Shown here: piece by piece, positions 1 through 34,823 of the stretch | How positions within the stretch are numbered: the stretch's first letter is position 1 | How the letters are laid out: each line of letters begins with the position of its first letter | Made by a program: the position numbers and the translations under genes | Assembly: GCA_964533995.1 (NCBI GenBank) | Contig: CAZHOQ010000002.1 | Coordinates: 1-35,480, forward strand | DNA from: an uncultured Gammaproteobacteria bacterium | GTDB lineage: Bacteria; Patescibacteriota; Microgenomatia; UBA10105; UBA927 | Length of the DNA stretch: 35,480 bases | Reading direction: 5' to 3' | The notes under the pieces: generated by a model | What the model saw: the letters and a program-made list of their open reading frames with translations, nothing else | What the model was told of the DNA's origin: nothing | The model's database searches: none

Positions 1-7
1 CAATGCG

Positions 8-3000
8 ATGGGCCGCCAGGTTGTGCAGTATACCGTCACGGTTGACGGAGAGATTCATGAATTATTGCTGGTGGAAGATCCGGCGGTCCCCGCGCTCACT
101 GAGGAATACCTTGCCGGTATTGTCCGCACCAAGAAGCAGGTACAGGCAGAAGTTTCAAGCTTCCTGTATATGCAATGCGCGGACGCATCATCCTGCGCGG
201 TAGACCGGAGTGATGCTGATCAGGTTATCGGTACGGTTGAGCAGAGTGATGTCATTGATTCGAACCATTTTGTGGCCGAGGACACGATGGAAGACGGCAC
301 GAATACGATGATCGATTACACATTCGGGGACAACGTAAGCAAAAAGGGCACGGTTCTTATCGTTCACACCGGCACGCATGAGCAGCTCGTGGAATTTATG
401 AATCAGACGTTTGATGGCGAATGGGGAACACTGGAGAATATATTCAGAAGGCCGGGAGAGGATGAGATTCCGGAATTCAACACGATACCGGATTATGAAG
501 CATGGCGACGTAATAATCCGCCGCCGGAGGCGAGGACCCAGATGCGCCCGGTACGCCAACCTAATGGAATACAGCAGTTATTTGCCCGTGTAGGTGACTG
601 GTTTGCCCGGATCCTGCGCCTGCCGGAAGACCGTTTGCGCGGCGATGCGCTCTATATATCTCAAAACGAAGCATATTGGAACGAAATAGTGCGGATGTGG
701 CGGGAATTTTGGCAACGGAGAATCAGTCGTTCTGCCGTACCTATTACCAAAGAATCGATTATTGCAGATATCCGTCAATCTTCGCCGATACTCAACAGGG
801 ATGTTATATCCCGTGCGCTTCCGGGTGATCTGAAGGTACTTGCGGAAGTAGCTGCGGATCAGACCGTCCGGGAGCGTGTTGGACTGCAGGACGGGTATCG
901 GGATCTGATCATTCGAATTATCACCAATACCCTGCGGGTTACCGGAGTTGAGAAAGACCGGATGGTCGCCAGTTTGTTCGACACGTTCGATGCCATACTC
1001 ACGTACGCGGTTGTGCTGGACGCATCCGATCCGGTAGCGGCACAACAGGCGTATCAGAAAGCATTGGCCGTAGCCGGAGCAATTCGGGAGATCCAGAATA
1101 CGACAATAAACCGCGACCGAATCGAGCGCAAGTTGAATGATGTGGTATCCGATACGAACCGGCAGGACATCGAAGAATTCATGGAGAATACACTTGGTGG
1201 GGACAGACTCCTCTTGGCACTCGCTATGCGGAACGCGATGGGAGGGAGCGTCCGGATTGAGGCATCTGTGGATGAATTGCGGGCGCAGCTTGCCACGGCA
1301 ACGCATGATCAGCTGGTGCAGATACAGAGCGACATAGCGACACGCCGGGCGTTCAGCGGATGGCCTACCATAGGATCCATTATAATCGGCGGACAGAAGA
1401 CTGATACGCTACAATTGCACTTCAATCCGTTCGGCTTGCAGAAGAATACATCGTACGAGTTCGAAACGCTGTATCTGGGAGTCACCGACCTGCTGGCGCT
1501 GCTGCGTGAGCTTGCGCTGAACCAGACAACCGTGCCGGCAGGTGCTCGGGTGTTGGGAGAACGGAAAAACAGGATTTCCGCGGAGCGTACGGATTTACAG
1601 ATGGCGCAGATTGCTGTGACCCGGCTCGGATTCCGGCTTGTTTCTGTGACGACCAATGACCGGACGAATACGTTCCGTTTCATGACCGACGCGCAAAAAG
1701 CGCAGATGTTAACCGACCTGCTTGCGAATCCGCAATCAAATCCGGAAGTGGCAAATGGTCTGTTTGCCATAGAAGCGGATACGGAAACGCTTCTTCGTGC
1801 ACAAGCGGAACTACAGCGCATCAGGTCATTGCTTGAGAGGCGTGTCGTTCGCGGCGGCAGGACGGAAGACGATATTCGATTGTTGTCGATTTTGAATCAC
1901 ACAATCGGAACGGACGCTAATGCGAGTGACGTATCTGTGGACGCTACAACAGCGCGGAATCCACAGGATGAAAGTGCGCAGCGTTCAGACAGCGCTGTTA
2001 CGCAAGATGATAATGCGCCGCTAACCTTCGATCGCGGGTCGGGTTATAACCCGGACGCACTGTATTTTTCCCAGCAGCTTGCCTTATTGGATGAATTATC
2101 CTGGCAGTTTCAGCAGCTGTGGGCTTCGATTCGCCGTTGGTTCGGCAGGGGTTCTTCGGTGGAACAGCAGCAACAAGAGCGTCAGATACAATTAATAAAT
2201 CAACTACAGTCCGGGGCGACCATGCTTCCGGAGGGTATCATGTTACGCGGACCGCTCGATGATAATCAGAACGTGTTACTGCGTCTTGCACGAAGCCGGC
2301 AGGAAAACCGAAGGGCGCGCAAGGAAACGGAGGCGCTTCGCAGGCTCCAAGGACATGACGACGTGCCTGAAATTATTCTGGAACAGAAGACCGGATCCGT
2401 AGGAGATATCCGATACAGTTATGCCACGAGCGAAGTAGCGGGCGCCAGTTTGCTCGGATTATCAAATGAACCTTTTATACGGGCTGAAGCAACGCGATTG
2501 CGTGAGCGGATGACGACTCAGGATAAATTGGATATCCTTCGCGGACTTATCGGGCATACGAGGGTATTCTTACAAAGTGGGGTTGTGCGCGGCGGGTATC
2601 AGTTGAGCGATCTGACCGTTTATCGGGATGAGGCTGGTGCACTTCATGTTGGAATCCGCTCGTTTTACAACAGTACAACGTTCCGATTAACCGGCATATT
2701 CAAGCAGCGGGCGCCGATGACGGATGTTGAGGCAATATCCGGCATCCTTACGGGAATTTTTGCCGATCCGGATTTGGTCCCGGCGGACATCCTCAGTTGG
2801 TCGCCGAATGACTATGCGACACCGGAAGAGGCGCTGAATGCCCTGGAAAACGCCATAGATCAGGTTACTTTAGAAGAAATTACGGAGATTGAAAACCAAC
2901 GTATAAGGTTGTTTGGTAATGAAGCGGCCGTCATACCGACCATATTTAGGAATGATGCTCAACCTGACATCGAGGAACCGCCTGGTCCGTCTCCGTTGCC

Positions 3001-6000
3001 GACACCGACGATCAGCCAACAGATGCGTGAGCTTCGGGAGTTAACCAACCGTAAGCGGGAGGAAAATTTCCCTGCAATCGAGCAGCGGATAGAGGAACCG
3101 GCAAGTGCCGTCATCGCGCAGGTTCGCGACGACCTCAATGCGTTCATGGGTCAGGTGCAGCTCTTCCGGCGGGACCGGAACACGTTTACAGAGCAGGACG
3201 AACAAACGGCAGTGCGGTATTTCCTCGAGATGCTCCGTGAGCGGTACAGCACGCGGCTTGCAACGACGCATCCCGACCGGTTTGCCGAAGTGTCGCTGGG
3301 ACAGAGCGCTGAGAATCACCCGCTCGATATTCTGCTTGCCTCGACGCTTTCCATCCTCAATGAGGAAAATTCCCGGCAGTTTGAAGTACTTATGACCGTA
3401 TGGAACGCGATGGAGCAGGAACGGAATTCCGCGTCCATTGCCCGGCCGCAGCAACAACCGCGTCCGGCCCGGAACGGTTTATCACTGGGCCAGGCACTCC
3501 GGAATTTCGTGAACAATACCCTGCTTGGCAGGGGAGCACGCCGCCAGCCGTTTACCGGGGAAGCGCAGGCACTCGTTATGAGTACCTTACAGAGACTGGT
3601 CTCACCGCGGGAAAATACGGGCGGCGGCACAAGCAGTTTCAGCTCTGCGGCAATGAACGAGGTTTGGGAATTCTTCGCCCGCCGGCTCACCGATCCTTTG
3701 CATGCCTATACGATCCAGGGGAATCTGACAAGAAACGTGTTCCCGCAGGGCGCGCAGCCGTTCGTGACCAACAGCATGCTCCGGGAATTCAACCGGGTCG
3801 GGAAGAACCCGCAGCGCGTATGGTCCTCGCTCGCGCTTCCGCTCTTCCTCCAGCAAGGGTTTTCGGTCGCCGGCAGGCTCGACGTACGGAATTTACGTGG
3901 CGCCAATAACGTATTTTCCCAGGCGGGATATGCGGCGTACGGCGATTATGTCCTGCGGTTGTTTGCCGACCGGATTCTGGGATCACTGCCGGCGGGATAT
4001 GAGCTTGTTCGGGTCGGTGGGGATGAATATATCGTTGTCGGTCCGGCCGGTCAGCCGGCACTCGACGTGCAGTCACTCATCGACCGCGCGTTGTCGAAGA
4101 CCCAGGTGCTGTACTCGGACGGTGAGACCGTTACGGTGAGCGCGTTGGATGCGAAGCCGCAAGTGAATTTGCTTCCCGTTGAGGTACGGATGGAGTCGGA
4201 TGGCGGCGATTACCTAACCCATATCCAGGACAGGCCGTACACGGATGCACGGTCGATGGAACTCGCGAAGCGCTATCATCCGGTACTCGAATACGTGGAC
4301 ACCCGGCTTACTACGTCCGGGGTGGATGGTGAGGTATACGCGTATCTTAAGCGTCTCGTCGCCGTACTCCTCTTTGACGATGTCCTGCGGCCGACGATGA
4401 GCAGGCTCGCAAATGACGTATACGGCACAACGGAAGAACCATACCCCTTGTCGACCTATGAAGATCCCGAAGAGTTCATTACGACCGTCCGTCAAAGAAA
4501 TCCGTACGGCACGAAGCTCGTGCGGTTCGACTATCCCGGTGTACTCAAATCGCTTAATTCCGTCAGTTCCGCGGAAGGCGATGCCCTGATCCGCTGGCAG
4601 TACGAGCGGCTGGTGCGGTATGCCCACGACACCCTACGCCTTACGGAAGTGCACGTGTACCGGCGTGCAAACGAACTGTATCTGGCCGTTCCGGAGGAAA
4701 CGGATGTCGATCTCAATGATATGCATGCGGCGCTGTCCGGATATTTCTACGCAGGCGGCCCGATTTACCGGGTCCTGCCTGCGCTCGCCGTGGGCTATGC
4801 GGCATTCGTTCCCGATGTCGCGGATACGACGGGTCGCATGAACATCGAGTCGTTCCAGCGGACCATGAGTAGTCTGGCAACGGATATAATTGCCGATACA
4901 GGGAGGCTCGTGCGGCGTGCGTTTGTCGAAAACGAACGTCCGGCCCTCAATCCGTTAAGCCAAAGGGAAGCCGGATGGTTTGAAGATATGCCGCAGGAGA
5001 AGTTTGCGGAATCGGACCGGCGGTTTGCCGTAGATTACTATAACCCCCTGGACAAGCGGGGAATCATCAGACTTCAGAACTTCGGCGCTACCCCGCAGGA
5101 GATCCGGGAGCTTTCCCAATTTTACCGCTCCAGCCCTGATGGTACGGCAGCCGTCGTTCAGCCTGAACGCGCATATTCCATGCTGGTTGAGATATTCAGT
5201 CGTGTCGATGCGGAAGCGCCGGAAGCGGAATCAACGATCGCATTCCCCGGAATTACCGTTACCCAGAGTAGGTATGAAGGGATCATTGCGCGACTGCAAC
5301 GGCTCAATTTGCCGCCGGAGGTCCGGGAGTTTGCACATGCGCTGATTACGTATGAAAATGCGGTTGAGGATTCACGCCTTGTCATGCGCCGCGTCCCCGA
5401 TCCCGAACAATCCAAGTACCCACAGGCGTACGGTGAGCACAGCTTCAACGGTGCGACGAGTTCCTGGGAGTGGTTCACGAAATACGGGCGTGAAGGGGAG
5501 TGGAACGATATGGCAAATCATATCGCACTCCAGTTGCTTTCCGGCGCAACGGACGGCAACACGGCCGCAAATATCATCGCACTTCATGAGTTGTACCGGG
5601 CGCAAATGAGCTTCCAGATTTTTGACAGGACCGGGTCGTTCCGCACGGCAGTTTCCGGAGCGGTTCCCGAAGAAGCAACCATCCGCGCATCCATGAATGG
5701 CGCCGGATTCGGGGTAGCCGCAAGCGGTGCCGACGCCATCAACAAATCCCGGACCTACTTTACCCGCGGGAATGCCAGGACGGTAACTACTAACGAGAAC
5801 GGGTCGGAGGTCATCAGTAAAATCAGCGAGAAAAACGGCGATGTCATCATCAAGCTCCGCGATGGCAATAATGCGCTCGTGAGTAAGGAACTAATCAGGG
5901 ACCAATACATCGCGGCAATCCAAAACGGCGTCCGGTTCGTGTCCTTCACGCTCGAATCCAAGACCGGCGAACGGTACGATGACATCCTGCCTGCGATTGC

Positions 6001-9000
6001 CGCGTATGTCGCCCAAGTCAACCGCGGCCGGGCACCGGAACATGCCGTCATCCTGGTCGTTGACGGCGTACAGCTTTTCGGCAGAACGCCGTATGCGGAT
6101 ATATTCCGGTGGCTTACCGTACCCGGAGTCACGGCCGTTGTGCACTCAGGATCCAAAGCCGCCGCGGGACCTGCCCACGCCGGGTTTATTTACCAATCCC
6201 AATACGGCAAAGACATCACGAAGTTCGAACTCACCGTCGAACAGAGTGTCCGTGACCTGACAACACCGCAACTTCACCGGGTCATCGGGAATATGAATGC
6301 CGTCACGGATCTTGTCGTACTTGCTGTCGAGAACACGCTATGGAGCAGGAAAGCGGAGGCTATTGCCCAAGTATATGACGACGAGCTGGTTGCCCTGGGC
6401 CTTACCCCGGTTTCCCAAATCCGGGATGCAAAAAGTGACAACCAATCGGTATCGATCAGAAGTTACGTGCTTGATGAAAACGTCGACGGTGACAAACTCC
6501 TTGCCGCATGGGCCGGGCAGGGATTCATCACCGGCGGCATTATCAAGGATGCGAAGCGTTCGATCGTGCGGTTTACGATTTCCGCCGAACTCATGCGGGA
6601 AGTGGCAGACATGACCCCGGAGGAAGCCGCCAAACATGTCCGCGGCAAGCTGCAGCAGAAGATTCCGACGATGCCGAAGGCCGACGAATTCCCGCGAACG
6701 CCGGCGGCTCCGCAGGCGCCAGTACCTCCCGGCGGACCGGAAACATTCGGCGACCGGGTGCGCCGCGTCGTTGACCGGATCCTCGATTGGCTGCCGGAGG
6801 GTATCCGAAACAGGATCCTGAATTGGATATATAACTCGGGCATGAATTTGGCACAAGTGACGTTTGGCAGGGGTAACGGGAACGGCAAGAGTACGGAAAA
6901 TGACGCGAAGAGTAGGCAGAACGACCGGGTCGCCGATTTCTTCGTCCGGGGATTCACCAGGGATAAGGACCAGCGGGCATTATTAAAGCAGCGCCTGCTA
7001 AATCCGCGAAACCGGTTTGTCCTGAATTTCATCTCCAGTCATTTGATGGATTACTATTTCCAGCGCGACCGTCTGCCGATCGACAAATCCCGGGCTGCCC
7101 GAGTGGAGTCCCGAAACATGGAGGACCGCAATCTCCTCATTAATAACCACAATTCCATACAAACGCCGCAAACGGTATGGAAATCCAGCGCGCTGCCGTT
7201 CCTACAGGGTCTGGGAGGGAAAGTCGTTGAGGTGTTTGAAGTTCAGCCAGTTCCGGAGGCCGGACTCACGTCGGAACAGCGCCGCCAGGTGTGGGATATG
7301 GAATTGCGGCTTATCGCATCGAGAGAAATGTTCACGAATCCGAATACGCCGTTTGCCCTGGTCCGCTTGAATGACTACCAGTTTGCCGTCGTTAATATGA
7401 ACCCGGAAGACGTAAACCGCAATTCGGCGATCCGCCAGGAATTAGGCCAGCTCTTTACGATCGTCCGGAGGACTCCCGCACACGACCCGCATACCCCTGG
7501 CGGTGCGAACATTGGCCCCCCAGGTATGGGGAACGTGCCGTTGCCGAGGCTTCCGATCACCTTCTACACGCCGGATGAGATAGAAGAACGGGGTATCCGG
7601 TTCGGCGGGGTATCGTTGGATTCCCCGATGGTGACGAAACTTTTATATGTCGCGGCAAGCGGACACACGTATGTCAGTATTGACGAAACAAACGCCTCCA
7701 TACCCGATAACGTACTGACCAACCCGGATCGCCGCGAAAAGCTGCGCCAACAAAACGACGGGTACGGCCAGATGATGCGGCTTCTGGAAAGCGATGATTT
7801 CCTTGCGGCGAATCCGGATTATCTTGAATACGTAAGCCGGCTCGGGGCCGCCGTAGCGGCAGATGACGTCCTGGACGGTACGGCCGCACAGTTGGAGAGC
7901 AAATACAACAAACGGGGCTACGACGTGAAGGTCAAGGTATTCGGCGACCGCGAGTCGGTCGTAAAAGCCGCGCGTGAGCGGTACGGCGAGAACTTTACCG
8001 TCGTCGAGGTGAACGTTGATGAGACCCTCCGGATGGTCGGGAGCAAATACGGGTACGAAGAGGGGGACTTCCTTATCCGGACGCTATTTGAAAAGCTAGC
8101 AGACCAGGTGTTCCTGGGGTTGAGGCTGGAAAACATGCTCGTCTACCGCGAAACGGCGACGAAGTATTATGTCGTTTTGAACGTCCATTATCCCTTGGAC
8201 GCCGGGAAACTGCAGGACGCACTGTTTAAAAGTTATAACCCGCATACGGTATCGAGAGTGATCGGGCGGACGGTGACGGAAGAAGAGAAGTTCTTCGTGC
8301 TGCCGATTGTTTCCATGAGCCATATTTCCATTCCCTCAGCGTCAACCCCGCAGGAGGCGGATGAGATATTCGCACAAACGCAGGATACCTTAAGGACGTA
8401 TACGGACGTAAAGATGCGCAGCACCATACGGGACTATTTCGCGACGAACCAACCGAGGGAGCAGTTCCAGTGGGAGTGGCTCTTCGCGTTCTTGCGGCGG
8501 GGAAGCATCCACGAGGAGCTTACGAAATTCGGGGCATCGGAGGATGAGATCGGGGCGGCGATCATCGATGCAAGAGTGCGGGATGGCAATGATTATCAGG
8601 CCGTCAAAGAGGCGCTGGTCCACCAAACCCGGGAGGACCGGAGTTTGGAAAGCAAAATTAAGAAACTGGAATCGGGTAATAATTCGCTCTGGTACCAGAT
8701 GGGGTACGAATTCCGCGGCGTCGTGCCGTTCCCTGCCCGGGTTATCTTGGGGCTTCTCGAAGCGTTATTCAGCAACTTCCCGGAGCGGCGGGGTAGCCGG
8801 CCGGGCAATGAGGGGAAACCCACCGATTTAGCAACAGCGGAACAGAATTTCTTGGCTGATTCCACTCCGGACAAACAGCACGCGTTTGAATCGTACATGT
8901 CCACGTGGTCCCTCCGAAGGACGGATAAACGGAATTTCGGCGCGGTGCTTCCGGTTACGGTGGACGGCAGCCGCGACGACCAATCAGTCGGGCTACGCGC

Positions 9001-24000: not shown

Positions 24001-27000
24001 TATCGGGCTCGTGCCTGCCGATAATCTGAGTCCGCCGGCACAGCAGTCATCCCCGGGCATCTTCCCGTTTATTAACAATCCGATTCAGGGAGTTATCCGT
24101 GCCATCTTCCCCCAAAGCGCACCGGAAAGTCCTGATCGGAAATCTGGTGCCGATACAAATACCGAGCAGCCGAAGGTTGTGAATTCCAATGAATCAACAA
24201 GGGTCACTACACAGCTTGAGCCGATCCGGGAGTTTCTGATTGCCCATCCCCAAATCAGGCAGATGGGACTGGCGGGCCAATTAGATGCGCTGATTCTTGA
24301 AGGACTTGCTACATTGACGTCTCCGGATGATCAGTACCGGTTTATACGGGAGGCAAATACGCTGTTACAGCCGCGTCTTAGCGATTATCTTGATCAGATT
24401 TACCTGCGGGACATGAAAGTTGACCTACGGAAAGAAACCGAACGACTGCGCTATCTGGTTATGGAGGAACGGTTTTTGGCTTTGGGGTTTGACTTTCATG
24501 CCGCATCATCCCTGTTTATTTACCTGCGGACGCCGGGGACGAGCGGACGGGATCTGGTGAGCGTTGTTCTGGAGGATGATGCAGAGACCGGGATTCCGCA
24601 ATTATACGTATCCGATTATCGGGGTACGACGCGCAAGTTAACGCTATTTACCGAGTATCTGGCATCGATGAAAGTAGGGGATATGCTGCAAGAAAGTTCC
24701 GGTATAGGCGGAGGCAGCATGTTCGCATACCAGAAGCAAACGGACGGTTCATTTGCAAAAGCCCGGTTGGTTGCCGCCCAGGGTTATGACACATTTACGG
24801 CGGAAGTGGTCCGCTCCGTATCGCTGTCAGCAAGCAAGTTCTGGCAAGCACTCGATGCTTCGGTACAGGCTAGGGATGCTGCTACGCTTATTGCGGCGTT
24901 GAAGACGGATCCGCAGATTGCCGAACTGTTAACACGGCAATATGAAGGCAATTCCGTCGAGGAGCGATTGCGAAAAGCTTTTCAGTCACACACGTCCGAT
25001 CCGACTCAACATTTGATCGTTACTCCTCGGGATGTGGCATTATTGTTGGTTTTTGCGGCATTTCCGCCATCGGAACGGGAGTATGTGACCGCTGTTGCCG
25101 TATCCCTTGTCAGTAATGGTGAGGTTCCGGATGGCGTAGGCCGTTTGGCACTGCTTGTCGCGTCAGGTGACGTATTCCGGTACTTCACATCCGATGATGT
25201 GGCTTCTACGGATCTGGTAAGAAAAATTGTTGATGTTGCCGCAGGATTCGGACAGAGCGAACTGGACGTCAGGGACGTGCTTACGGATGTATATCAGGGT
25301 CGATATGGCTTGCCGTTTGATACCAAAAAAGTACTTGCGCTGAATAAGGCAATCCACGCGGTTAGGGCACACACAACGAATACGGAACAGATAAGTTCCG
25401 CATTCCCGTCGTTATTCCAGCGGGTCGCCATGGTCCGGGACAATATCATACACACACCGTATCCTGCGCATCGGATTGACCCCAAAACCGGATATCCCGT
25501 ATTACCCGACGGCACTGCGGCAAGCGATCATGCCGTTATTTCCTCCTCGGATCGTGCATCGGAAGAAGATATCGAGAAGGCGAGAAAAGTGTTGGAGAAG
25601 ATTCGTCCGGACGGGACATTCATCCTGGGCCACAGTCCGACACCAGGAGACGCGTCCCAGTCCCAGCTTCTTGGCCAGGAGAAGGCGGTGCAGCTGCTCG
25701 TTAATTTTATCGTTTTCGGAATATGGCCGCAGTACGAAACACCGGAGCTTTCCCGGTATGAATCCGCTCCGTGGATCGGCACATTTAACTTGGTGGATCC
25801 GCACAACGTATCTGCCGGCCGGTATTTCGAAAACGGAGCAGCCGTCATCATCGATCCGCGTGCGGAGCATCCGTACAATGCAATAGATGAGCAGGAAACA
25901 TCAGTATATGTTCCGCCTCAATATCTTCTCTATATCGTGCCCACATGGGCGCATGGGGATCAATTGCTCCGCGAGGCCATTAAATTACGACGCCTGAACC
26001 CCGATGAGGCAAAAGATCTGGATAGCAGGATATTCACCATCCAGGATGTTATTGACGGAACATTCGAACGCTACATAAGTAGGAACGAACCGGCGAGCGA
26101 TGTAGAGCAGTTTGCCCAGGATCGCCTAGACGAGGCGGAAAACAACTGTAATGGCAACCAGACTTCGATACCAACGTTTACCGTTCATGCCGCAGGCGGC
26201 AAGGTCTGCAGTATCGCGGACCGGCTGCTTGCCAACCTGAAAGGGGCGGGGATGAACGGGGATATGCCCAACAGAACCGTCTGGAACCGTGTACGGAATT
26301 TCCTTGGATTCGATGTGAACGGGCGTCCGTCAACGCGCCGCCAGTATCCCTTGTGGATTCCCGCGTTCTTCAATTTCATCCAATACAAGGTAAATGGCGA
26401 ACCGTTCATGGTGTACCTTGACCGGGAATTTGCCAAATCTCCGGGAAAGGCGTGGCTTACCGCAAGCTGGCATCTTGCCAGGGCAGTTTTCGTATGGGCC
26501 GATACGACGCTGTTGTTCACACCGCGGAACGACATTCGCACCATGATGGTAACCATGCAAAATCCAATTGCGATGTTTGTCATGCCCATTCTGGAAGAAC
26601 TGGGGTACAGAAGTAACGCGACGCTGCAGAGAGTCCAAACCTTCCTGGGGCGTTTCGGAGTTCACTTAAGCGGATTCCAGATGCGCCGTCTTTCTGATGT
26701 CGTGTTTGTTTTGTACCATATACCCAATTACATCATCGCTCCGCAGCTTATCCCGTTCCAGCTCGTGTCGAAATTCTTCGGTGCGGCATTCATGCAGAAG
26801 CTCGCAAACGAACGGGGACTGGGCACGTCGATAGCATTCCATACGTTTTTTAACACGATGGTTGCCGCGATGGAGGCGTTAACCGTTTCCCCGAATGGGG
26901 CAGTCGCTGCCCAGTCACCTTCCTACGCCTGGGCGCCATTCGGCGTCATCACCGCGGTCCAGGTTGCGCTAGGCACGAAGGAGCTGATAGACGATTACCG

Positions 27001-30000
27001 GATTGACCGGACCCTGCGGGGTCTCAGAGCGGGAGAAGAGAGGACGCAAGCTCAAGTTTGGATACCGCGTCTTCTTGCAGTGCCAGCTACTAACGGATAC
27101 AAATATCTTTCCGGTCTCGAAATGTCCTATGAAGTGCACCGGAAGGGAAGCGGCAACGAAAGTGATGTGGTGTCTGCCGTTATTCAGGATATCGTAGATA
27201 ATGCACCCCGGAATTTATCTTCTGAGCTAATCCGGGACAGGATCGAAAACGGCTTGAAACATCTTTCGGACGTATATGGGGTTGCCCAAGATTCTTATCT
27301 TGAGGCGGTTGATGCTTGGGTAGAACAGTACCTAGAGAACGTAATTACCGCTGCACGGCAAACGCAGGAGACTTGGTGGGGGCGTATTTCCCGACTTATC
27401 AGTGATTTGTTTAGACGAGCAAGCAGTAGTCGATTCCCTCACGAAGCGGACGTCCAGGACCGCCTTGACGATGCGGAAAGCAACTGTAGCGGCAACCAGA
27501 CCTGGATACCCACGTTCACCGTTCATGCCGCCGGCGGCAAAGTCTGCAGCATCGTGGACCGGCTGCTTACTTCCCTGAAACATGATGTGGGAATGACCGG
27601 TGACATGCCGATCCGGACGATTATCGGGACGGGCGCATCTGTTCTAGGCGGGGGATCGGGCGATGCGGCGGACGGACCAATCGAACTGTACGGCACTGCG
27701 GTATCCCCCTTGTCCAGAAACGACCGCGAGCAATTATGGGCAAGCGGCAGGGATTTGCATTCGGACCGCGGCCGCGTATACGAAATTCCCGGCGGACGGG
27801 TGTACCAGGAAAAAGAGGTGTATTACCATTTCGCATCGAAGGATGCGCTTATCCGGCAGCTCCGGTTTCTTGTCCTCCTGACCCAGAAGGGATTCTTCCC
27901 TCCGGATACGACATGGTTCTATTACCGGATGGACAACGGGGAATATTCCATTGCGGCGAACATGCCGTATCTTCAGAAGACGGCAGGCATCCCCAGGCCG
28001 GACCGGCGAACCTCTTCCGAAGCGATCACCGGGCCCATGCAGCGCGTATTTTCTTCGTTCCGGATCGGAGTCAACCAAAGCGACCCGGACTACCAGGAAC
28101 AACTAGTCTGGGCGGCCATGATCGCGGCCGACGCGTTAAAGTACGACAACTGGGCAGACGATGGGAAACAGATCTACCTTATAGACATCGAAGGTGTTAC
28201 GAACCGCCCGCAGGCAGTCGATGCGGTACTGGATCATTTGGATCCGTCAGCAGAGACGGGAAATATTTGGAGTTGGTTGCGCGGATTGATTGATTTAATA
28301 CGTAATGGCGGTATCGGCGGCGGGCCGGCACCGGTTGGGGAAGGGGACGGGGAAGCGACGATACGCCTGCCGGTCACCACATCCGCCGAGCAGGTGCGAC
28401 TTAAAAGCGACGGGGCGGCGTGGCAAACGGCCAGGGAAATCCTGCTTGTTCCAATACTCCCTGTCAGATTATTCATATATTATTTCAATGGCATTGACGT
28501 GCCGACACTTGTTGGTCGGATGGACAATCTCCCCTCCGTGCTTGAATGGCTCCGGACGATTGAGGCACTCCCGATTCTTGATAAATACACCGCATCATTC
28601 GGGAAACGTCAGGCAATGGAAGAAATCTTCGATAACCTGTTAGCTAATCCGGACCGGGCGGCAATTATCCGGCATCTTCCAGATTTGCTTAACAGCGGGA
28701 AAGCACTCGGCATGTCCGAGGAGCAATTGACGGAACTTATGATCGTTACGACCGAAATGCCCGTATCGATCATGGTTAAGACTGCGGGGCTTCTGCCTAC
28801 GTTGAGGAAGTGGCATGGCGAGGATCCGTATGGCAGCTTCCTCGACAAATATAACCAAACCGGCGTCATATATGCGTTTCTCCACGTGCAGAATCCATTG
28901 CCGGTGCTGCCGTATATCGACGGATGGGTAGAGATTTTGGAAAAAGACGAGCGGCTGGACGGATTCCTGAAGACACAGGCGCTCGCGTCGCTTATCACCG
29001 CTCCCGACCCATCGCGCATACCGCCGGCGGATCTTCCTCAATATATCAATCAAGTCGTGGAGCTCCGGGGGATAGCCGAACTAACCGAAGAAGACCTCCA
29101 CTTCGAGAGTGATTACTTCGAATACGTATTCAGCAGGACGGATCCCAAGCGTACATACGAATCCGTCCGGTTTGTGTTCTATGATCCGGAGACGCTTGCC
29201 ATCATCAATACGGACCTAACCCGGCGGCAGGTTATCGGGCTTATGCGGTACGGGCTCGGCGGTTCACTTACGAGCAATCACACACTGTTCCGTCCCCTTG
29301 AGGAAATGCTGCTTGATGCAGGACTTCAGTATTCAGACATCTCACTGGTGATCGGCAGGAATCTGGATCGGTCTGCCGTACTTCCCGCGGTAGTCGCCGA
29401 CGAGCGGATTACCGGGCTCATCCGCGGACTGCGGTATCTGGGTTTTCCATCCAAGCTCAAGGGGGAAATCATCAGAAATGCCATATCCAAATTTTTGGGC
29501 GAATCTACGGAGGCGGAAAAAACAAGTATTGCAACCGAACAGAATATCGCAGCTCTGAACTCACTCTGGAAACTCCAAAACGATCCGGCGCTTATTACGG
29601 CAGGTCACTTTGACACGCTCACTGCTGAGTATGGAGAGACATTTGTCCGTGAGGGGCTGTATGCACTGGGGACGTATGTTGCCGAGGTATACGACGCCTA
29701 TACCCGCTGGATCAGGAATTATCCCGATCCTGCGAAACGGGATGAGGCGATCGGGGTGATCAAGCTTTTCAAGGAACTCGGTATCAGTATCGATAACAAT
29801 AGGATTTACGGATTTACGCATTTGCCGGAGGTCGTCGTGGTAGCGGTAGAGGCGATGCCGGACACGGATAGGGAAACGAAGACGAGGTTGCTTGTCGAAT
29901 TTTCCGCATACCGGGCGCGTGGTGATTCGCTCAAGGAAGAGGCGCTCCTAAAGATTATCCGTGAAGGCAGGTTTACGGAATTTGCGAGCGACTATCAAAA

Positions 30001-33000
30001 GCTCCGGATTCTTGAAGACCGGGATGTGATCGCGATGAAAGATGCGGCGACGCTCAATAGCCTCTATGCGAGACAACGGGAGCGCCTTCAGGAAGTCGTC
30101 GGAAGCATGTTGGAGACGCGTTATTCGGAAAAGTACGTCGCCGATCTTGTTGAGGGACTTGTAACCCTGTGTGCCGTCGTGTGTGCCAGTCAGGAAATGG
30201 TTGAATTTCCGGTGGGCAACGCGACCTTTGCTGTTCCATTGGCGTTCGGAGAAGAGCTTGCCGAACAAGTGACTGACCTTTCGGAGTTTGCCAAAAGGCT
30301 TTTTGTTTACATCATTGCCGATTCCGTCGTTAAGGAGAATCCGTACGCGATTGTTGACCTTGGAGTGCTCCAAATCGGTCAGACGGTCGATAAGGTTGGC
30401 AACAGAAGAAACGCGCTAGATTTAAATGAAACATATGCCGCGGTTCAGCGGAACATTGAGGCATCTACAGCCGTTTGGAAACAGGCTCAGGAGCTTCGGG
30501 ACGAAGAAGCGGGAAGGCCGGTATTCATCATCGCAAACGAACGGACCGCCCCGGCGGATGTGGCGGCGGAAGCGTTCTCGCCGGAAACGGCCAAAGCCCA
30601 GGGGATCGTGCAGGACGTGCCGTATGACGATATTTTCCCGTGGATGCTGGAGAATAAGGCGCTTATTGATCGGTTGTACGACCAGTACCAGAAAGGTCAG
30701 CCCCTTACCGGATCCATACCCGCGGATATCGTCCAGATGCTCGGGCTGAACTCCGGCGGCAGGATCATACCCATTTACCGCCTCAAAATCGCATCCTCAG
30801 ACGGGAATATCGGCAAGGATTCGGATGGATTTCCGGCAGTGCTGACGTTCATGAAACTTGCTTCGCTTCTAAACGGCAAGGTCCTGTTCGTTGACGAATC
30901 CACGAGAGTCGCACCCCGATCGATTGTTTCCGTATACGGTTCGCTTGACCGGCGCCAGAAGGAGCTCGGCGGCGTCCGGGTCCGGATGGTTGGGAAATTG
31001 CATAATGCCGTATGGGATACGGGCGCGAAATTTACTGATGCTAACCCTGGCCGCCCTCATATGGATGTCACCTTCCTTGATCCTTGGACCTATCAGGATA
31101 AATCCATTACGGACGACAGTTTCGGATTCGTACCGGAAGTGGAAGGAACCGGCTATGTGAAGATTGTCGTTCCGGCACAGCTTTCGCTTTCCGTACAGGT
31201 CGGCAAAACCATGCAGGATACCTGGAAGCGGATGATTGCCGGTCAGGTTGCACAGCGCATGGGCTGGGAGCAGGCGCCGGAACATGGCGCAGAAAACGCT
31301 GAGCAGGCCAAATTGACGAAAGCATTCGCCAGGCCGTATAAGGCCGTAAGCCTGGATTTTGATGGGACGTCCAACAACGAAACGATTCAGCGTGTAAGAA
31401 CGCTCCTTACCGAAGGCACAATGGTCATATTCAACACCGCCCGTTCGACCGTTGAACATCCGGAGTATAACGGAGGCATTGCGATCATATCCGACCAGCT
31501 GTCCGACTTGCCGCAGGAAGCGCTCGATTTATTGTGGTTCTCGACGGAGGACGGAGGCTACATCGCACCGTTTACGGCGCTCGAATCACCGATATTCACG
31601 GCACCTATGGAGCCTGCGGCAGAGGTGAAGATTCGCTCTTATATCCGGTCTTCCGTCCGTATCACCCGCGGCATATACGACGAACGCGTGTCGATTGTCT
31701 TGCGGTTTAATCATGGAAAGGAGACCGAGGCCGCATTAGCACAACTTACGAAATTCGTCACCCAAAATAATTTACCATTATTGGTAGTTTCCCGAAGCCG
31801 TCATGGTATTGCCATACGGTCCGATAAAGCCAGCAAGGCAAATATTTTTCCGCTTCTTGAGGAAGAAGGTGTTGCGGTGGACGATGTTCTAAAGGTAGGG
31901 GACAGTGCGGAAGGCAACGATAGGGATCAGCTTATCGGACGCGGTGCGTTCAATGTCGGCCCGAATCGGGGAGGGACCCAGGATACTATTTACTGGGGTG
32001 ACCGGGAGATCGGAACCAACGACATACTTGACCGCGCGGCGTTCGTCCCTGCCCGGGAAGGTACGGACAAGAGAACTCAGCCGGAAAGCAAGGATTCCGT
32101 GCTGGGTATCGATACGGATTGTTTTTCCGCAAATCCGTTTATACCGAAAGTATACGCTGCAGACGGATCCGGGCATACCTGCAGCCCGTTTTTCCGGGCT
32201 CCATGGAAGGTGGTATTCGAGAATGCCGATGAGGCATTCGATACGGAAAAGCGGGATAGGCTTATGAAGCGGGTAGGGGAAGAGGTTGGAGGGGTGTTCG
32301 GTACGATGGCAGACCGGTCTATCGGTCTTGCGAGAAAGTTTATAAAACTCGAATTACTGACAAGGCTCGGGTATGCCCTGTTTGGCAAGTACGGGGGCAA
32401 CTCACAGCTCCCGCCTCCGGATAAGTTCGTACTTGGCATGACCGGTGTCGGATGCTGGTTTAATAACTGCCAGGAGGGATGCACCACTGGCTTGCAATGC
32501 AGCGAAACGACCGGCTGTTGTACGGGCATCAAAAATTATAAGGACACCATATGCTCCTCGGACGGCAATGCGGAGATGGACCGGCATATGACGGATGATT
32601 TGTTCCAGCCGGATGAGGTCAGGCTCTGCGATGAGCGTGGTTGTAAGGACGGCAAATGCCAAGGATACAAAACAGATACGGACGGCCTGCCCGCATGCTC
32701 GTCCTTGCCGGTGGCATACAACATGTCGGACTTTTCGGAATGGAGTTATTTACCGGTAACCGGTTGTGTCAATGATGACGGGACGCTGGGGTATAAAATG
32801 GGTGTTCCGACGGACGAATTTAAGGATTACTCCTGCTCACTTGACGGCACCAAAGTGCTTAATACGGAAGGTGAGGTAGTGCATACATGCGGAAGCGGCG
32901 TGACCTGCGCGAAATTTGCTGATTCGGTAGACTGTTTTCTCCCTTCCTCGATCCAGGCGCTCGAAATGTGCAGCCCGACGGTGCGACTTGCAAGCGGGTT

Positions 33001-34009: not shown

Positions 34010-34028
34010 GAAATCTTTTGTGCCCGAA

Positions 34029-34814: not shown

Positions 34815-34823
34815 AGCGGGTGT

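What the first reader, a model, noticed from the sequence alone, without database searches (positions are those of the whole stretch)
8..34009. A gene of at least 34 kb encoding a non-repetitive protein of at least 11,333 aa, neither megasynthase nor repeat adhesin
One frame is stop-free for 11,333 codons, while every other frame is broken into ORFs of 278 aa or less. That cannot be chance at this base composition. The frame is still open at the 5' window edge, so the gene may be larger.

Most very large bacterial genes are NRPS/PKS or tandem-repeat adhesins/RTX proteins. This one shows neither. Instead it strings together about 15 different enzyme-like domains separated by long, apparently helical regions of unknown function.

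I recall giant genes of this general kind being reported from metagenomes of uncultivated, possibly predatory or epibiotic lineages. That is recollection, not something shown by this sequence. The specific architecture here does not match any family I recognise.
Basis: partly seen in the sequence, partly recalled or inferred. Interest (0 to 1): 0.9.

Follow-up and report, generated by a model that had tools for sequence, protein, structure and literature searches.

The report
Giant mosaic enzyme-array gene in Patescibacteria
The window holds the last 34 kb of a real, even larger gene (probably 44-49 kb) from an ultra-small Patescibacteria (CPR) bacterium; it belongs to an undescribed family of 9,500-16,000-residue proteins that string together swappable enzyme modules, separated by short cysteine-bracketed loops that look like signal-peptidase cutting sites.

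Summary
Frame +2 has no stop for 11,335 codons (chance about 1e-210). There are no tandem repeats, the coding signal is uniform, and dN/dS against close relatives is 0.07-0.09. The gene is cut off at its 5' end. A 90%-identical relative continues at least 3,333 codons further upstream, and syntenic loci carry complete genes of 9,454 to 16,185 aa.

The organism is a Patescibacteria/Microgenomates-type bacterium, judged from conserved PIG-L/YfhO synteny with named MAGs.

HMMs give only marginal GGDEF, alpha/beta-hydrolase and CPBP/Rce1 hits, and more than 90% of the protein is dark.

New findings:
- The family is a mosaic. Blocks up to 61% identical over 2,080 aa occur in different orders in different proteins.
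- Six Cys-bracketed loops punctuate the protein. Across 38 family loops the core is V-[YFH]-A, with Ala invariant at -1. This matches the type-I signal-peptidase rule and the genuine N-terminal signal peptides of two family members. Similarity between relatives breaks at these loops.
- A conserved C-terminal cap joins a Cys-rich region to a zincin-like HExxH domain. Only 44 matches were found among 1.84 billion proteins.

Best reading (inferred, not shown): an exported multi-effector polyprotein that is cut at the loops.

The parts
2..34009 (+). 3' 34 kb of the giant ORF (11,335 codons plus stop). It is truncated at the 5' end by the end of the window or contig.
   Evidence: stop-free frame, uniform codon-position GC; ortholog continues upstream; dN/dS 0.087 and 0.066
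3659..5221 (+). GGDEF-like module A (aa 1220-1740; 'VRVGGDEYIVVG' at aa 1339). After the cap, this is the most widely shared module in the family.
   Evidence: Pfam GGDEF 17.7 bits, below the cutoff. Homologous blocks occur in P0032, P0007, P0020, L004, L012, L014 and L016. GGDEF is above cutoff in L004 (47.1 bits) and P0007 (25.6 bits).
5264..6658 (+). Module aa 1755-2219, function unknown. It is shared with P0039 (33% identity) but absent from P0032 at the equivalent position.
   Evidence: no Pfam hit even at E<=1
6899..13009 (+). Conserved core block aa 2300-4336. It contains a second GGDEF-like paralog (aa 2384-2855), an unknown module (aa 2838-3399) and the first alpha/beta-hydrolase-like domain (aa 3933-4292, GQSTG). 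The block ends 5 aa before loop 1.
   Evidence: 61% identity over 2,080 aa to P0032 and partial matches to P0007; 90% identity to L009 with dN/dS 0.087; internal similarity to aa 5474-5824; weak Abhydrolase_3 hit
13022..13078 (+). Cys loop 1 (aa 4341-4359): CGGGAGIIRKVFAQDSVFC
   Evidence: conserved in P0039 (CGIGGAGAGLIKLAFAQSQTYC), followed by a 40%-identical module
16403..18307 (+). Module aa 5468-6102 with the second alpha/beta-hydrolase domain (GHSLG at aa 5632)
   Evidence: Pfam Abhydrolase_6 24.1 bits and DUF676 20.9 bits (cutoff 20.3); 37% identity to P0001, where it sits in a different context
20198..20275 (+). Cys loop 2 (aa 6733-6758): CGLGAGIVKPVYAQGPGGSQSASGVC
   Evidence: DNA repeat D2 with loop 3 (81% over 100 nt)
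20393..20551 (+). The only strong transmembrane hairpin (aa ~6798-6850), about 40 aa after loop 2
   Evidence: Kyte-Doolittle 19-aa window maximum of 2.23
21851..21928 (+). Cys loop 3 (aa 7284-7309): CGGNSGFVRKAYAQSPGGSGSASGVC
23333..26110 (+). Module aa 7778-8703, function unknown. It ends 13 aa before loop 4. An HExxH motif (AHERIH, aa 7679) lies just upstream of it.
   Evidence: 55% identity to P0001 aa 1-316 and 61% to P0039 aa 4109-4750; paralogous copies in the upstream part of L009 and in L011
26147..26209 (+). Cys loop 4 (aa 8716-8736): CNGNQTSIPTFTVHAAGGKVC
   Evidence: DNA repeat D1 with loop 5 (86% over 127 nt); the same loop type precedes the cap in L011
26567..26860 (+). CPBP/Rce1-like intramembrane metalloprotease domain (aa 8856-8953; EELGYR, LYH and HTFFN motifs). 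It lies in the segment between loops 4 and 5.
   Evidence: Pfam Rce1-like 24.5 bits, cutoff 22.4; motifs read
27485..27547 (+). Cys loop 5 (aa 9162-9182): CSGNQTWIPTFTVHAAGGKVC
32120..32182 (+). Cys loop 6 (aa 10707-10727): CFSANPFIPKVYAADGSGHTC. It sits directly in front of the C-terminal cap.
   Evidence: predicted disordered (pLDDT<50 for residues 1-44 of the cap model); the junction of similarity with L011 lies here
32453..33388 (+). Cys-rich beta-rich part of the conserved C-terminal cap (aa ~10818-11129; 30 of the protein's 50 cysteines fall in this range, and 34 lie at or beyond aa 10818 counting the cap's zincin part)
   Evidence: AlphaFold model with pLDDT 77; no PDB fold match
33383..34006 (+). 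Zincin-like metallopeptidase subdomain of the cap (aa 11128-11335; 'VIIHEFFHNW', conserved '...CGEDFAD...RYDYF...EYLPxxGCGKG' end)
   Evidence: family members hit Peptidase_M90, M1 and M61 weakly; the family profile aligns to the aminopeptidase N active site; AlphaFold pLDDT 84 and pTM 0.84; top Foldseek hits are zincins but weak
34029..34814 (-). Convergent neighbour: PIG-L/LmbE-family deacetylase, 19 nt from the stop of the giant gene. It is the marker of conserved synteny.
   Evidence: Pfam PIG-L 93.9 bits; orthologs sit next to giant genes in L006-L008, L010-L012 and L014-L017
34824..35480 (-). C-terminal fragment of a YfhO-like membrane protein, cut by the end of the window
   Evidence: Pfam YfhO 21.3 bits, weak; 58-59% identity to the gene at the same position in L006-L008

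Best explanation
SHOWN. The window holds the 3' 34 kb of one genuine protein-coding gene of a Patescibacteria (CPR, Microgenomates-like) bacterium. The full gene is probably 44-49 kb. It belongs to a rare, undescribed family of 9,500-16,200-residue proteins encoded at a conserved locus, convergent with PIG-L and YfhO-like genes.

Family members are mosaics. Each carries an array of mostly unrecognisable modules, and the same modules recur in different orders in different proteins. The few recognisable modules are GGDEF-like, alpha/beta-hydrolase/lipase, CPBP and zincin proteases. Relatives add Fic, VanY, LytR-CpsA-Psr, GNAT, GDSL lipase and a SecA-like motor.

The C-terminal two thirds of the window's ORF (aa 4341 onward) is punctuated by short loops bracketed by two cysteines. 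The loop core is [LFI][VI]-x-[RKP]-V-[YFH]-A-[AQ]. Many members end in a conserved cap made of a Cys-rich region and a zincin-like HExxH domain.

INFERRED. The protein is exported and acts as a polyprotein. Each loop offers a type-I-signal-peptidase-type site (small residues at -3 and -1). After export the loop is cut, either by signal peptidase or by one of the protein's own metalloprotease modules. This would release or nick the large segments, which in the window's protein are >=4,340, 2,373, 525, 1,406, 425, 1,524 and 608 aa. The bracketing disulfide could keep nicked pieces tethered until they are reduced. The modules would then act as a battery of effectors on the envelope, or inside the cytoplasm, of the host cell to which these epibionts attach.

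The loop regions are also the points where modules are exchanged by recombination.
For: Real gene:
- A stop-free run with chance about 1e-210 and uniform codon-position GC.
- No internal stops in any of more than 12 related ORFs.
- 100% identical independent assemblies.

Larger than the window:
- L009 is open for 6,961 codons, with 3,333 of them upstream of the window's first codon.
- Complete called genes at syntenic loci are 16,185, 12,742, 12,670, 10,697 and 9,454 aa.

Taxon:
- Loci lie in Beckwithbacteria, Gottesmanbacteria and 'Patescibacteria group' MAGs.
- PIG-L (42-45% identity) and YfhO (58-59%) are in conserved positions.

Mosaic structure. For example, P0032 matches giant aa 2300-4336 at 61% identity, but carries the giant's aa 360-662 module downstream of that block.

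Loops:
- Only 16 Cys occur in the first 10,800 aa, and 12 of them form 6 loops.
- Across 38 unique family loops, -1 is Ala in 38/38, -3 is Val in 34, Ala in 3 and Thr in 1, -2 is Y/F/H/L, and +1 is never Pro.
- The giant has 6 matches against 0.05 expected in shuffles.

The same motif is the c-region of real N-terminal signal peptides in complete family genes:
- P0007: 'MHTRTKLYYIVLGFTVGIIFGSLAGLSIPKVYA|QD'.
- P0002: '...LFVGWLFVRPALIVHA|AV'.
- P0002 is a stand-alone gene made of signal peptide, loop and cap, in a 'split' version of the locus.

Loops are junctions:
- L011 is 91% identical to the window in the cap, but has a different loop type in front of it and unrelated sequence upstream.
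- Homology blocks end 5-13 aa before loops 1 and 4.
- The only direct DNA repeats in the 3' 21 kb are the loop regions.

Other support:
- Loop 6 is predicted disordered.
- Evidence for export: paired cysteines, a 34-Cys cap, signal peptides in P0007 and P0002, a SecA_DEAD domain in P0032 (38 bits), and wall-acting domains VanY and LCP in relatives.
- The cap looks like a protease.
- The effector-like repertoire includes Fic at E = 8.9e-12.
Against: - No cleavage has been observed. The whole processing step is inference from sequence.
- The internal loops lack the hydrophobic h-region that signal peptidase I substrates normally have. Only 10 of 39 loops have a TM-like segment within 100 aa (3.4 expected), so a membrane-bound signal peptidase may not reach most of them.
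- The N-terminus of the window's own gene, and of every gene above 9,000 aa, could not be fetched. Export of these proteins is therefore unproven.
- The N-terminal >=7,700 aa (L009 plus window aa 1-4340) has no loops at all. If the protein is a polyprotein, one product is still enormous.
- Some syntenic giants lack the zincin cap (L012, L014, L016), so the cap cannot be the universal processing enzyme.
- Fold matches of the cap to zincins are weak (E>1e-3, TM<0.5).
- More than 90% of the sequence has no recognisable domain, so the 'effector battery' reading rests on a handful of domains, most of them in relatives.
- No host, and no contact-dependent delivery apparatus, was identified.
Confidence: 0.45

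Rival explanations
1. The protein is a single giant, unprocessed surface or membrane-associated scaffold, like the giant proteins of Omnitrophota. It stays in one piece and works as an attachment and enzyme platform at the contact with the host. The Cys loops are only disulfide-stapled flexible hinges between rigid segments. Their resemblance to signal-peptide c-regions is a relic of how modules were acquired, by fusion of once-separate secreted proteins.
For: - Most loops have no adjacent hydrophobic segment, which signal peptidase I would need.
- The family shares features with the Omnitrophota and Actinobacteria large proteins of West-Roberts et al.: a divergent SecA_DEAD domain in P0032, GGDEF, and mostly unannotatable sequence.
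- 'Split' loci exist in which the cap is a separate secreted gene. This fits an origin by gene fusion that retained part of the signal peptide.
Against: - A relic would decay. Instead the V-[YFH]-A core and both cysteines are kept in 38 loops across proteins that are otherwise 20-30% identical or unrelated. That points to selection on the loop itself.
- The protein has very few TM segments.
- No adhesin-type repeats or Ig, cadherin or dockerin domains were found.
Confidence: 0.3
2. The protein is a MARTX-like, self-processing multi-effector toxin. One of its own protease modules (the C-terminal zincin cap, an internal HExxH module or the CPBP domain), not signal peptidase, cuts at the loops after delivery. 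Reduction of the loop disulfides in the target cytoplasm then frees the effectors.
For: - Several metalloprotease-like modules lie inside the same polypeptide: HExxH at aa 7096, 7679 and 11210, and CPBP at aa 8856-8953.
- The effector-type repertoire needs cytoplasmic cofactors: Fic, GNAT and GGDEF-like domains.
- Modules shuffle at the junctions.
- A nick site bracketed by a disulfide is the classic AB-toxin arrangement (established knowledge of diphtheria and botulinum toxins).
- The tight V-Y-A motif is more specific than the generic A-x-A of signal peptidase.
Against: - There are no RTX repeats, no C80 cysteine protease domain and no type I secretion signal.
- Giants without the zincin cap still have loops.
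- Real N-terminal signal peptides carry the same motif, which points to signal peptidase.
- No immunity gene was found next to the locus.
Confidence: 0.15
3. The long ORF is an artefact: an assembly chimera, or several adjacent genes fused by sequencing errors.
For: - The window looks like a short-read metagenome contig.
- Only its last 11.5 kb is covered by an independent identical assembly.
- One relative, L003, has a frame change inside the cap.
Against: - Twelve or more independent assemblies from JGI, NCBI, ENA and Logan show uninterrupted ORFs of 3,300-16,185 codons at the same syntenic position.
- Collinear similarity to L009 (90% over 2,828 aa) and to P0032 (61% over 2,080 aa) spans much of the 5' half.
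- dN/dS is 0.07-0.09.
- The chance of such an open frame is about 1e-210.
Confidence: 0.02

Closest known systems
Large and giant proteins of Omnitrophota and other ultra-small or predatory bacteria (West-Roberts et al. 2023, bioRxiv 10.1101/2023.11.21.568195)
   Same: - Single genes above 30 kb in small-genome, host-dependent lineages.
- Non-repetitive multi-domain proteins that are mostly invisible to HMMs.
- GGDEF domains, and in the relative P0032 a divergent SecA DEAD-like domain.
- A proposed role at the interface with another cell.
   Different: - The phylum differs: Patescibacteria, which that paper does not list as carriers.
- Sizes are 9.5-16 k aa, which is 'large' but not 'giant' (>=30 k aa) by their definition.
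- The window's protein has few TM segments, against 'numerous' in theirs.
- No dockerin, beta-helix or carbohydrate-active domains were detected.
- Cys-loop punctuation, a Cys-rich/zincin cap and the PIG-L/YfhO synteny are not described there.
MARTX toxins (multifunctional autoprocessing repeats-in-toxin; from established knowledge)
   Same: One polypeptide carries an array of unrelated effector enzymes, including alpha/beta hydrolases. The array differs between strains through recombination, and it is cut between modules to release them.
   Different: No RTX repeats, no C80 cysteine protease domain and no type I secretion signal were found. The junction motif and its disulfide bracket are unrelated to MARTX junctions. 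The taxon and the size of the modules also differ.
Polymorphic toxin systems (Rhs, CdiA and related; Aravind-type classification; from established knowledge and 10.1101/2025.01.14.632903)
   Same: A conserved part is joined to cassette-like variable enzymatic domains that are exchanged by recombination. The repertoire includes Fic, zincin 'MPTase' peptidases, lipases and peptidoglycan hydrolases.
   Different: Here the conserved element is at the C-terminus and the variable modules are many and internal. No Rhs/YD or filamentous haemagglutinin repeats, no recognised trafficking domain and no adjacent immunity gene were seen.
Polyproteins cut by signal peptidase at internal sites (structural region of flavivirus and pestivirus polyproteins), and AB toxins with a disulfide-bracketed nick loop (diphtheria, botulinum); from established knowledge
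   Same: Internal sites obey the (-3,-1) rule within one long translation product. A protease-accessible loop is closed by two cysteines, so the cut products stay linked until they are reduced.
   Different: Viral sites follow true transmembrane signal sequences, whereas most loops here do not. The toxins have one loop with a basic protease motif. No bacterial chromosomal polyprotein of this design turned up in the literature searches (a narrow search).

Membership tests
NRPS/PKS megasynthases | Condensation, adenylation, KS, AT or carrier-protein domains in repeated modules | tested here: not met
   No such Pfam or NCBIfam hit in any 1,000-aa tile.
Repeat adhesins / RTX proteins | Long arrays of tandem Ig-like, cadherin, RTX or similar repeats | tested here: not met
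   TRF finds one trivial 43-nt array. Self-BLAST finds five weak or short internal matches. There are no repeat-family HMM hits.
Omnitrophota-type giant proteins (West-Roberts 2023) | Length of at least 30,000 aa | tested here: not met
   The window has 11,335+ aa. The longest complete relative is 16,185 aa. The definition is quoted.
Omnitrophota-type giant proteins (West-Roberts 2023) | Numerous transmembrane regions | tested here: not met
   There is one strong TM hairpin plus the moderately hydrophobic CPBP module. This was a hydropathy scan only, not a dedicated predictor.
Omnitrophota-type giant proteins (West-Roberts 2023) | Divergent SecA DEAD-like domain | tested here: inconclusive
   No such domain in the window or in the 3,333 aa upstream in L009. 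It is present in the relative P0032 (38.1 bits, cutoff 24.6). The far N-terminus of the window's gene is unknown.
MARTX toxins | RTX glycine-rich repeats and a C80 cysteine protease domain | tested here: not met
   No Pfam hits.
Polymorphic toxin systems | Variable C-terminal toxin domain with an adjacent cognate immunity gene | tested here: not met
   The C-terminus is the conserved part. The downstream genes are PIG-L and YfhO-like, conserved across loci.
Type I signal peptidase cleavage site (for the loops) | Small uncharged residues at -1 and -3; +1 is not Pro | tested here: met
   In 38 loops, -1 is Ala in 38/38, -3 is Val/Ala/Thr in 38/38, and +1 is never Pro.
Type I signal peptidase cleavage site (for the loops) | A preceding hydrophobic h-region or transmembrane helix that places the site at the membrane surface | tested here: not met
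   Only 2-3 hydrophobic residues lie at -6 and -7. A TM-like segment lies within 100 aa of only 10 of 39 loops. This feature is met only for the true N-termini of P0007 and P0002.
Type I signal peptidase cleavage site (for the loops) | Actual cleavage by signal peptidase | not testable with these tools
   Needs proteomics or biochemistry.
Zincin (gluzincin-like) metallopeptidases (for the C-terminal subdomain) | HExxH on an active-site helix, plus a downstream third zinc ligand | tested here: inconclusive
   HExxH is nearly invariant in the family (E508 and H511 of A3) and lies on a predicted helix. A nearly invariant Glu in 'C-x-E-D-F-A-D', about 70 residues downstream, is a candidate third ligand, but its geometry was not checked.
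Zincin (gluzincin-like) metallopeptidases (for the C-terminal subdomain) | Significant profile or fold similarity to a known zincin family | tested here: inconclusive
   Peptidase_M90 in 3 members (best E = 1.6e-5), plus weak M1 and M61 hits; the window's own copy hits none. Foldseek's top hits are zincins, but with E of 3.6e-3 or worse and TM of 0.46 or less.
CPBP / Rce1-like intramembrane proteases (aa 8856-8953) | Pfam PF02517 above the gathering score, with EExxxR, FxxxH and HxxxN motifs | tested here: met
   24.5 bits against a cutoff of 22.4, which is marginal. EELGYR, VLYH and HTFFN are present.
GGDEF diguanylate cyclases (aa ~1220-1740) | Pfam PF00990 above the gathering score, with a GG[DE]EF active-site motif | tested here: inconclusive
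   The window scores 17.7 bits against a cutoff of 23.8 and has 'GGDEY'. Homologous modules in L004 (47.1 bits) and P0007 (25.6 bits) pass.

The most novel reading that the evidence does not exclude
Patescibacteria encode chromosomal 'mega-polyproteins'. Each is a single 30-49 kb gene, up to about 5% of a ~1 Mb genome. Its product is exported and then cut at recurring disulfide-bracketed loops that mimic signal-peptide cleavage sites. This yields a strain-specific, recombination-shuffled set of mostly novel enzymes delivered to the host cell. It would be a way of encoding, co-regulating and diversifying an effector arsenal not previously described in bacteria.
Probability: 0.3. Interest if true: 0.9.

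Novelty: new variant of a known kind. Interest (0 to 1): 0.78.

Why it matters
CPR/Patescibacteria make up a large share of bacterial diversity. They live attached to other microbes and have genomes of about 1 Mb. How they grip, feed on or manipulate their hosts is largely unknown.

A conserved locus that spends 3-5% of such a genome on one gene is likely to be central to that lifestyle. The gene is under strong purifying selection, yet its modules are reshuffled even between close relatives.

The family also offers:
- more than 100,000 residues of protein sequence with no recognisable domains, a reservoir of new folds and enzymes;
- a simple, testable sequence rule, the Cys-...V-Y-A|A...-Cys loop, which may define how a bacterial polyprotein is cut;
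- a second lineage, independent of Omnitrophota, in which ultra-small bacteria evolved very large multi-enzyme genes, which makes comparison possible.

The work also shows that standard protein databases and word-index searches largely miss such genes.

Tried and rejected
Searches that failed or were uninformative:
- Whole-protein and 5,000-aa queries to the word-index protein search failed on length limits or timed out.
- The same tool found only one relative for aa 5401-6900 and none for the cap, although relatives exist. It is insensitive here, and proteins above 10,000 aa seem to be absent from it.
- The first metagenome scan with the cap alignment found nothing.
- PDB sequence searches of the whole protein gave only a GGDEF hint at E = 0.068.
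- NCBIfam gave nothing above noise.
- A Foldseek search with the full 632-aa cap returned only noise (beta-propeller-like hits, TM below 0.1).
- Accession-number searches for the source samples found no papers.

My own by-eye readings that were not supported:
- A PLP-dependent enzyme (aa 1755-2219, 'HSGSKAAAGP'), a GT-A glycosyltransferase (aa ~6100-6560) and a HAD phosphatase (aa ~10440-10706, 'LDFDGT') got no Pfam support even at E<=1.
- The only related signal was a faint NCBIfam HAD hit. I do not claim these domains.

Rivals and tests that came to nothing:
- Phage or plasmid origin: there are no tblastn matches in 50,697 phage or 72,556 plasmid records.
- I tried to test whether ordinary secreted proteins of these genomes use V-Y-A signal-peptide ends. 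The flanking genes are mostly membrane proteins, so this was uninformative.
- Rfam found no RNA families. The terminator and promoter scan of the 3' end was at background level.
- I rejected the idea that the zincin cap is the universal processing protease, because loops persist in giants that lack it.

Full report
**1.

The + strand frame that starts at nt 2 has no stop codon for 11,335 codons (nt 2-34006, stop at 34007-34009). No other frame exceeds 328 stop-free codons. At this base composition 4.2% of random codons are stops, so the chance of such a run is about 1e-210. GC at the three codon positions is uniform along the whole ORF. Tandem Repeats Finder reports one trivial 43-nt array. 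Self-BLAST of the protein shows only five short or weak internal similarities. Two independent Logan assemblies from different sequencing runs match window 24029-35480 and 33731-35278 at 100% identity.

**2. The gene is real, under selection, and larger than the window**

A metagenome scan with the first 300 residues found locus L009 on a 144-kb JGI contig.
- Its entire 20.9 kb is one open frame of 6,961 codons.
- It is 90% identical to window aa 1005-3826 and 53% identical to aa 1-654.
- It runs at least 3,333 codons further upstream.
- It reads '...ERANAMGRQVVQ...' straight through the window's first codons, so the ATG at nt 8 is an internal methionine.

The small downstream PIG-L gene served as a handle to find syntenic loci in Logan, NCBI and ENA assemblies.
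- There the gene callers report complete convergent neighbours of 16,185, 12,742, 12,670, 10,697 and 9,454 aa.
- Truncated copies are 14,616 and 4,215 aa.
- None of the related ORFs I could read has an internal stop.

Codon-level comparison gives dN/dS = 0.087 over 2,828 codons (window vs L009, dS 0.67) and 0.066 over the C-terminal domain (vs L010/L011). Assembly chimera or fused genes can therefore be set aside. The full gene is probably 44-49 kb.

**3. Whose gene it is**

A scan of species-representative genomes with the conserved C-terminal domain found five loci. Three are in MAGs named Candidatus Beckwithbacteria, Candidatus Gottesmanbacteria and 'Patescibacteria group bacterium'; the last sits on a 990-kb contig. 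Two are labelled 'uncultured Gammaproteobacteria'. One of those two (L008) shares the same gene neighbourhood, so its label is doubtful.

The window's PIG-L and YfhO-like genes are 42-45% and 58-59% identical to the genes at the same positions in three of these loci. The wider neighbourhood recurs in every long contig examined: RmlC, HAD, NPCBM, YfhO-like and PIG-L, then the giant gene convergent. Gottesmanbacteria belong to the Microgenomates group of the Patescibacteria. No phage or plasmid record encodes anything similar.

**4. What can and cannot be recognised in the protein**

Pfam on overlapping 1,000-aa tiles gives only three results:
- GGDEF at 17.7 bits, below the cutoff (aa ~1313-1375).
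- Alpha/beta-hydrolase/DUF676 at about the cutoff (aa ~5546-5712).
- Rce1-like CPBP protease at 24.5 bits against a cutoff of 22.4 (aa 8856-8953).

NCBIfam adds nothing. PDB sequence search adds nothing. Another roughly 20,000 residues of relatives' sequence are equally dark.

My own motif-level impressions (PLP-, GT-A- and HAD-like) also failed a lenient HMM test. Using internal paralogy and family-level evidence, I can defend these modules:
- two GGDEF-like modules;
- two alpha/beta-hydrolase modules;
- one CPBP protease;
- one C-terminal zincin-like domain;
- two further bare HExxH motifs (aa 7096 and 7679).

Across the family, Pfam also detects Fic/DOC (E = 8.9e-12), VanY D-Ala-D-Ala carboxypeptidase, LytR-CpsA-Psr, GNAT acetyltransferases, GDSL and class-3 lipases, and in P0032 a divergent SecA DEAD-like motor.

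**5. A conserved C-terminal cap**

The last ~630 aa comprise a loop, a Cys-rich beta-rich region, a subdomain containing 'VIIHEFFHNW', and a conserved end '...EYLPxxGCGKG'. This cap is conserved at 30-43% identity in otherwise unrelated giants and always sits at the extreme C-terminus.

An exhaustive HMMER search of 1.84 billion representative proteins found only 44 matches, including proteins of 4,454 to 7,694 aa.

AlphaFold models are reasonable: pLDDT 77 for the whole cap and 84 (pTM 0.84) for the HExxH subdomain.
- The whole cap has no PDB fold match.
- The subdomain's top matches are nearly all zincin peptidases: a Bacteroides putative metallopeptidase, anthrax lethal factor, YbeY, LTA4 hydrolase, ACE and MMP-2. 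All are weak.
- Some family members weakly hit Peptidase_M90, M1 and M61, and the family profile aligns to the aminopeptidase N active site.

I read the subdomain as a divergent zincin-like metallopeptidase. Not all syntenic giants have this cap: L012, L014 and L016 end differently.

**6. Mosaic architecture**

BLASTP of all relatives against the window's protein covers 6,269 of its 11,335 residues, but never collinearly over the whole length.
- P0032 (7,694 aa) matches aa 2300-4336 at 61% identity and aa 1220-1739 at 37%. It lacks the intervening aa 1755-2219 module, and it carries the aa 360-662 module downstream.
- P0039 has aa 4318-5069, 1755-2219 and 8063-8703, in that order.
- P0001 joins aa 7778-8091, an unrelated stretch, aa 5468-6102 and the cap.

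Close relatives differ too. L009 is 90% identical to the window over aa 1005-3826, 53% over aa 1-654, and unrelated over aa 655-1004. L011 is 91% identical in the cap but not collinear upstream of it.

**7. The cysteine-bracketed loops**

Cysteine is almost excluded from the protein: 50 in 11,335 aa, 34 of them in the cap. Of the 16 upstream cysteines, 12 form six pairs 18-25 residues apart, at aa 4341, 6733, 7284, 8716, 9162 and 10707. Each pair encloses a shared motif. The same element recurs inside the relatives.

In 38 unique loops:
- position -1 is Ala in all 38;
- -3 is Val in 34, Ala in 3 and Thr in 1;
- -2 is Tyr, Phe, His or Leu;
- -6 and -7 are hydrophobic;
- Pro or a basic residue is common at -4, -5 and -8;
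- +1 is Ala, Gln or Val and never Pro.

The giant has six matches to the pattern, against 0.05 expected in shuffles (maximum 2 in 2,000 shuffles). This is the (-3,-1) rule of type I signal peptidase.

The same motif forms the cleavage region of true N-terminal signal peptides in two complete family genes:
- P0007: 'MHTRTKLYYIVLGFTVGIIFGSLAGLSIPKVYA|QD'.
- P0002: '...LFVGWLFVRPALIVHA|AV'.

P0002 is a stand-alone 801-aa gene made of signal peptide, loop and cap. It lies 80 nt downstream of a larger ORF, in a 'split' version of the same locus.

The loops are also the junctions of the mosaic.
- Homology blocks stop 5-13 aa before loops 1 and 4.
- Between the window and L011, similarity resumes at 'RAPWKVVFENADEAF' just after the loop, and the loop itself is of a different type.
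- The only direct DNA repeats of 40 nt or more in the 3' 21 kb are the loop regions (81-86% identity over 100-127 nt).

Loop 6 is predicted to be disordered.

**8. Most likely mechanism, and its limits**

Shown: a real, giant, mosaic gene at a conserved Patescibacteria locus, with conserved loops and a conserved cap.

Inferred: the product is exported. The evidence is the paired cysteines, a disulfide-rich cap, signal peptides in complete smaller members, a SecA-like motor in one relative, and wall-acting domains in others.

Also inferred: the product is cut at the loops. For the window's protein this would give pieces of >=4,340, 2,373, 525, 1,406, 425, 1,524 and 608 aa. The bracketing disulfide would keep a nicked loop closed until it is reduced, as in AB toxins. 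Domains that need ATP, GTP or acetyl-CoA (Fic, GGDEF-like, GNAT) make most sense inside a target cell's cytoplasm.

Points against:
- No cleavage data exist.
- The loops lack a hydrophobic h-region, and only 10 of 39 have a TM-like segment within 100 aa (3.4 expected). Classical membrane-bound signal peptidase may not reach most of them, and a dedicated protease (zincin, CPBP) is an alternative.
- The N-terminal >=7,700 aa carries no loops.
- The N-termini of all genes above 9,000 aa remain unseen.

I put about 0.45 on the exported, loop-processed polyprotein reading taken as a whole. I put above 0.95 on the 'shown' part.

**9. Comparison with what is known**

The nearest published concept is the set of large and giant proteins of Omnitrophota and some other phyla (West-Roberts et al. 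2023). Shared features are very large size, dark sequence, GGDEF and SecA_DEAD domains, and an ultra-small host-dependent lifestyle. This family differs in several ways:
- it is in a different phylum, one not reported there;
- it falls below their 30,000-aa 'giant' threshold;
- it has few TM segments;
- it shows features they do not describe (loops, cap, synteny).

In logic it resembles MARTX and polymorphic toxins, with shuffled effector arrays and cutting between modules. It fails their defining features: no RTX repeats, no C80 protease, no C-terminal variable toxin with an immunity gene. Literature searches found no description of a Patescibacteria family like this, nor of a bacterial polyprotein cut at signal-peptidase-type internal loops. 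The searches were limited to open-access text.

**10. Verdict**

I rate it a new variant of a known kind: very large multi-enzyme genes of ultra-small symbiotic bacteria. It may contain a categorically new element, loop-punctuated polyprotein processing, which is directly testable.

Noticed in passing
L018 1-20824 (Logan SRR22388055_8320): Two very large genes (9,531 aa and the 4,454-aa P0007) lie on the same strand. They are separated by AbiEii, Fic/MerR and AAA_14/DUF4143 genes and followed by a ParE/PhdYeFM pair. This looks like a defence and toxin-antitoxin islet inserted in a giant-gene locus, possibly splitting an ancestral single gene. The upstream gene ends '...DALRCAVAP*'.
   Followed up: partly
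L019 112-9958 (JGI 3300044712, Ga0453684_0004302): A 'split' version of the locus. An ORF of at least 2,490 aa, open to the contig end and carrying an internal loop CFAIQTGVERVYAIENTARGTVC, is followed after 80 nt by a separate 801-aa gene (signal peptide, loop, Cys-rich/zincin cap). The neighbours are again NPCBM and YfhO-like, but there is no PIG-L.
   Followed up: partly
L003 5764-5778: The only relative found by the word-index search has a +1 frame change inside the C-terminal cap. This is either a sequencing error or a pseudogenised copy.
   Followed up: no
L004 and L008 (CAYSOR010000008.1, CAYUZE010000006.1): These MAG contigs are titled 'uncultured Gammaproteobacteria'. L008 has the same PIG-L/YfhO/giant-gene synteny as the Patescibacteria loci (58% identical YfhO), so the taxonomic label is probably wrong.
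   Followed up: partly
window 176-196 and 30170-30184 (aa 59-65 and 10057-10061): Two small cysteine pairs lack the V-Y-A motif: 'CADASSC' (conserved as CAEASSC in L009) and 'CAVVC'. Their function is unknown, and they are the only non-loop cysteines upstream of the cap.
   Followed up: no
window 1964-3013 (aa 655-1004) versus L009: Divergence between two close relatives is patchy: 90% identity for aa 1005-3826, 53% for aa 1-654, and no similarity at all for aa 655-1004 (350 aa here against 164 aa in L009). This looks like a local segment replacement with no loop at the boundary.
   Followed up: no
window 34010-34028: Only 19 nt separate the stop of the giant gene from the stop of the convergent PIG-L gene. 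The same 19-nt gap is seen in L010 and L011, and in L015 the two called genes overlap. No terminator-like hairpin was detected there.
   Followed up: partly
window 35480 (3' end): The window ends at exactly the same base as the independent Logan contig SRR5011273_228444, inside the YfhO-like gene. This suggests a shared assembly break (a repeat or strain variation) at that point.
   Followed up: no
window 3119-3409 and 15311-15610 (aa 1040-1136 and 5104-5203): A weak internal similarity (27% over 101 aa, E = 5e-5) links two otherwise unannotated regions. It may be a small recurring domain.
   Followed up: no
tools: The word-index protein search did not return the window's own giant protein, and it missed all relatives of the cap that an exhaustive HMMER search then found. 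Proteins above 10,000 aa appear to be absent from both protein libraries, so giant-gene families are systematically under-reported by such resources.
   Followed up: yes
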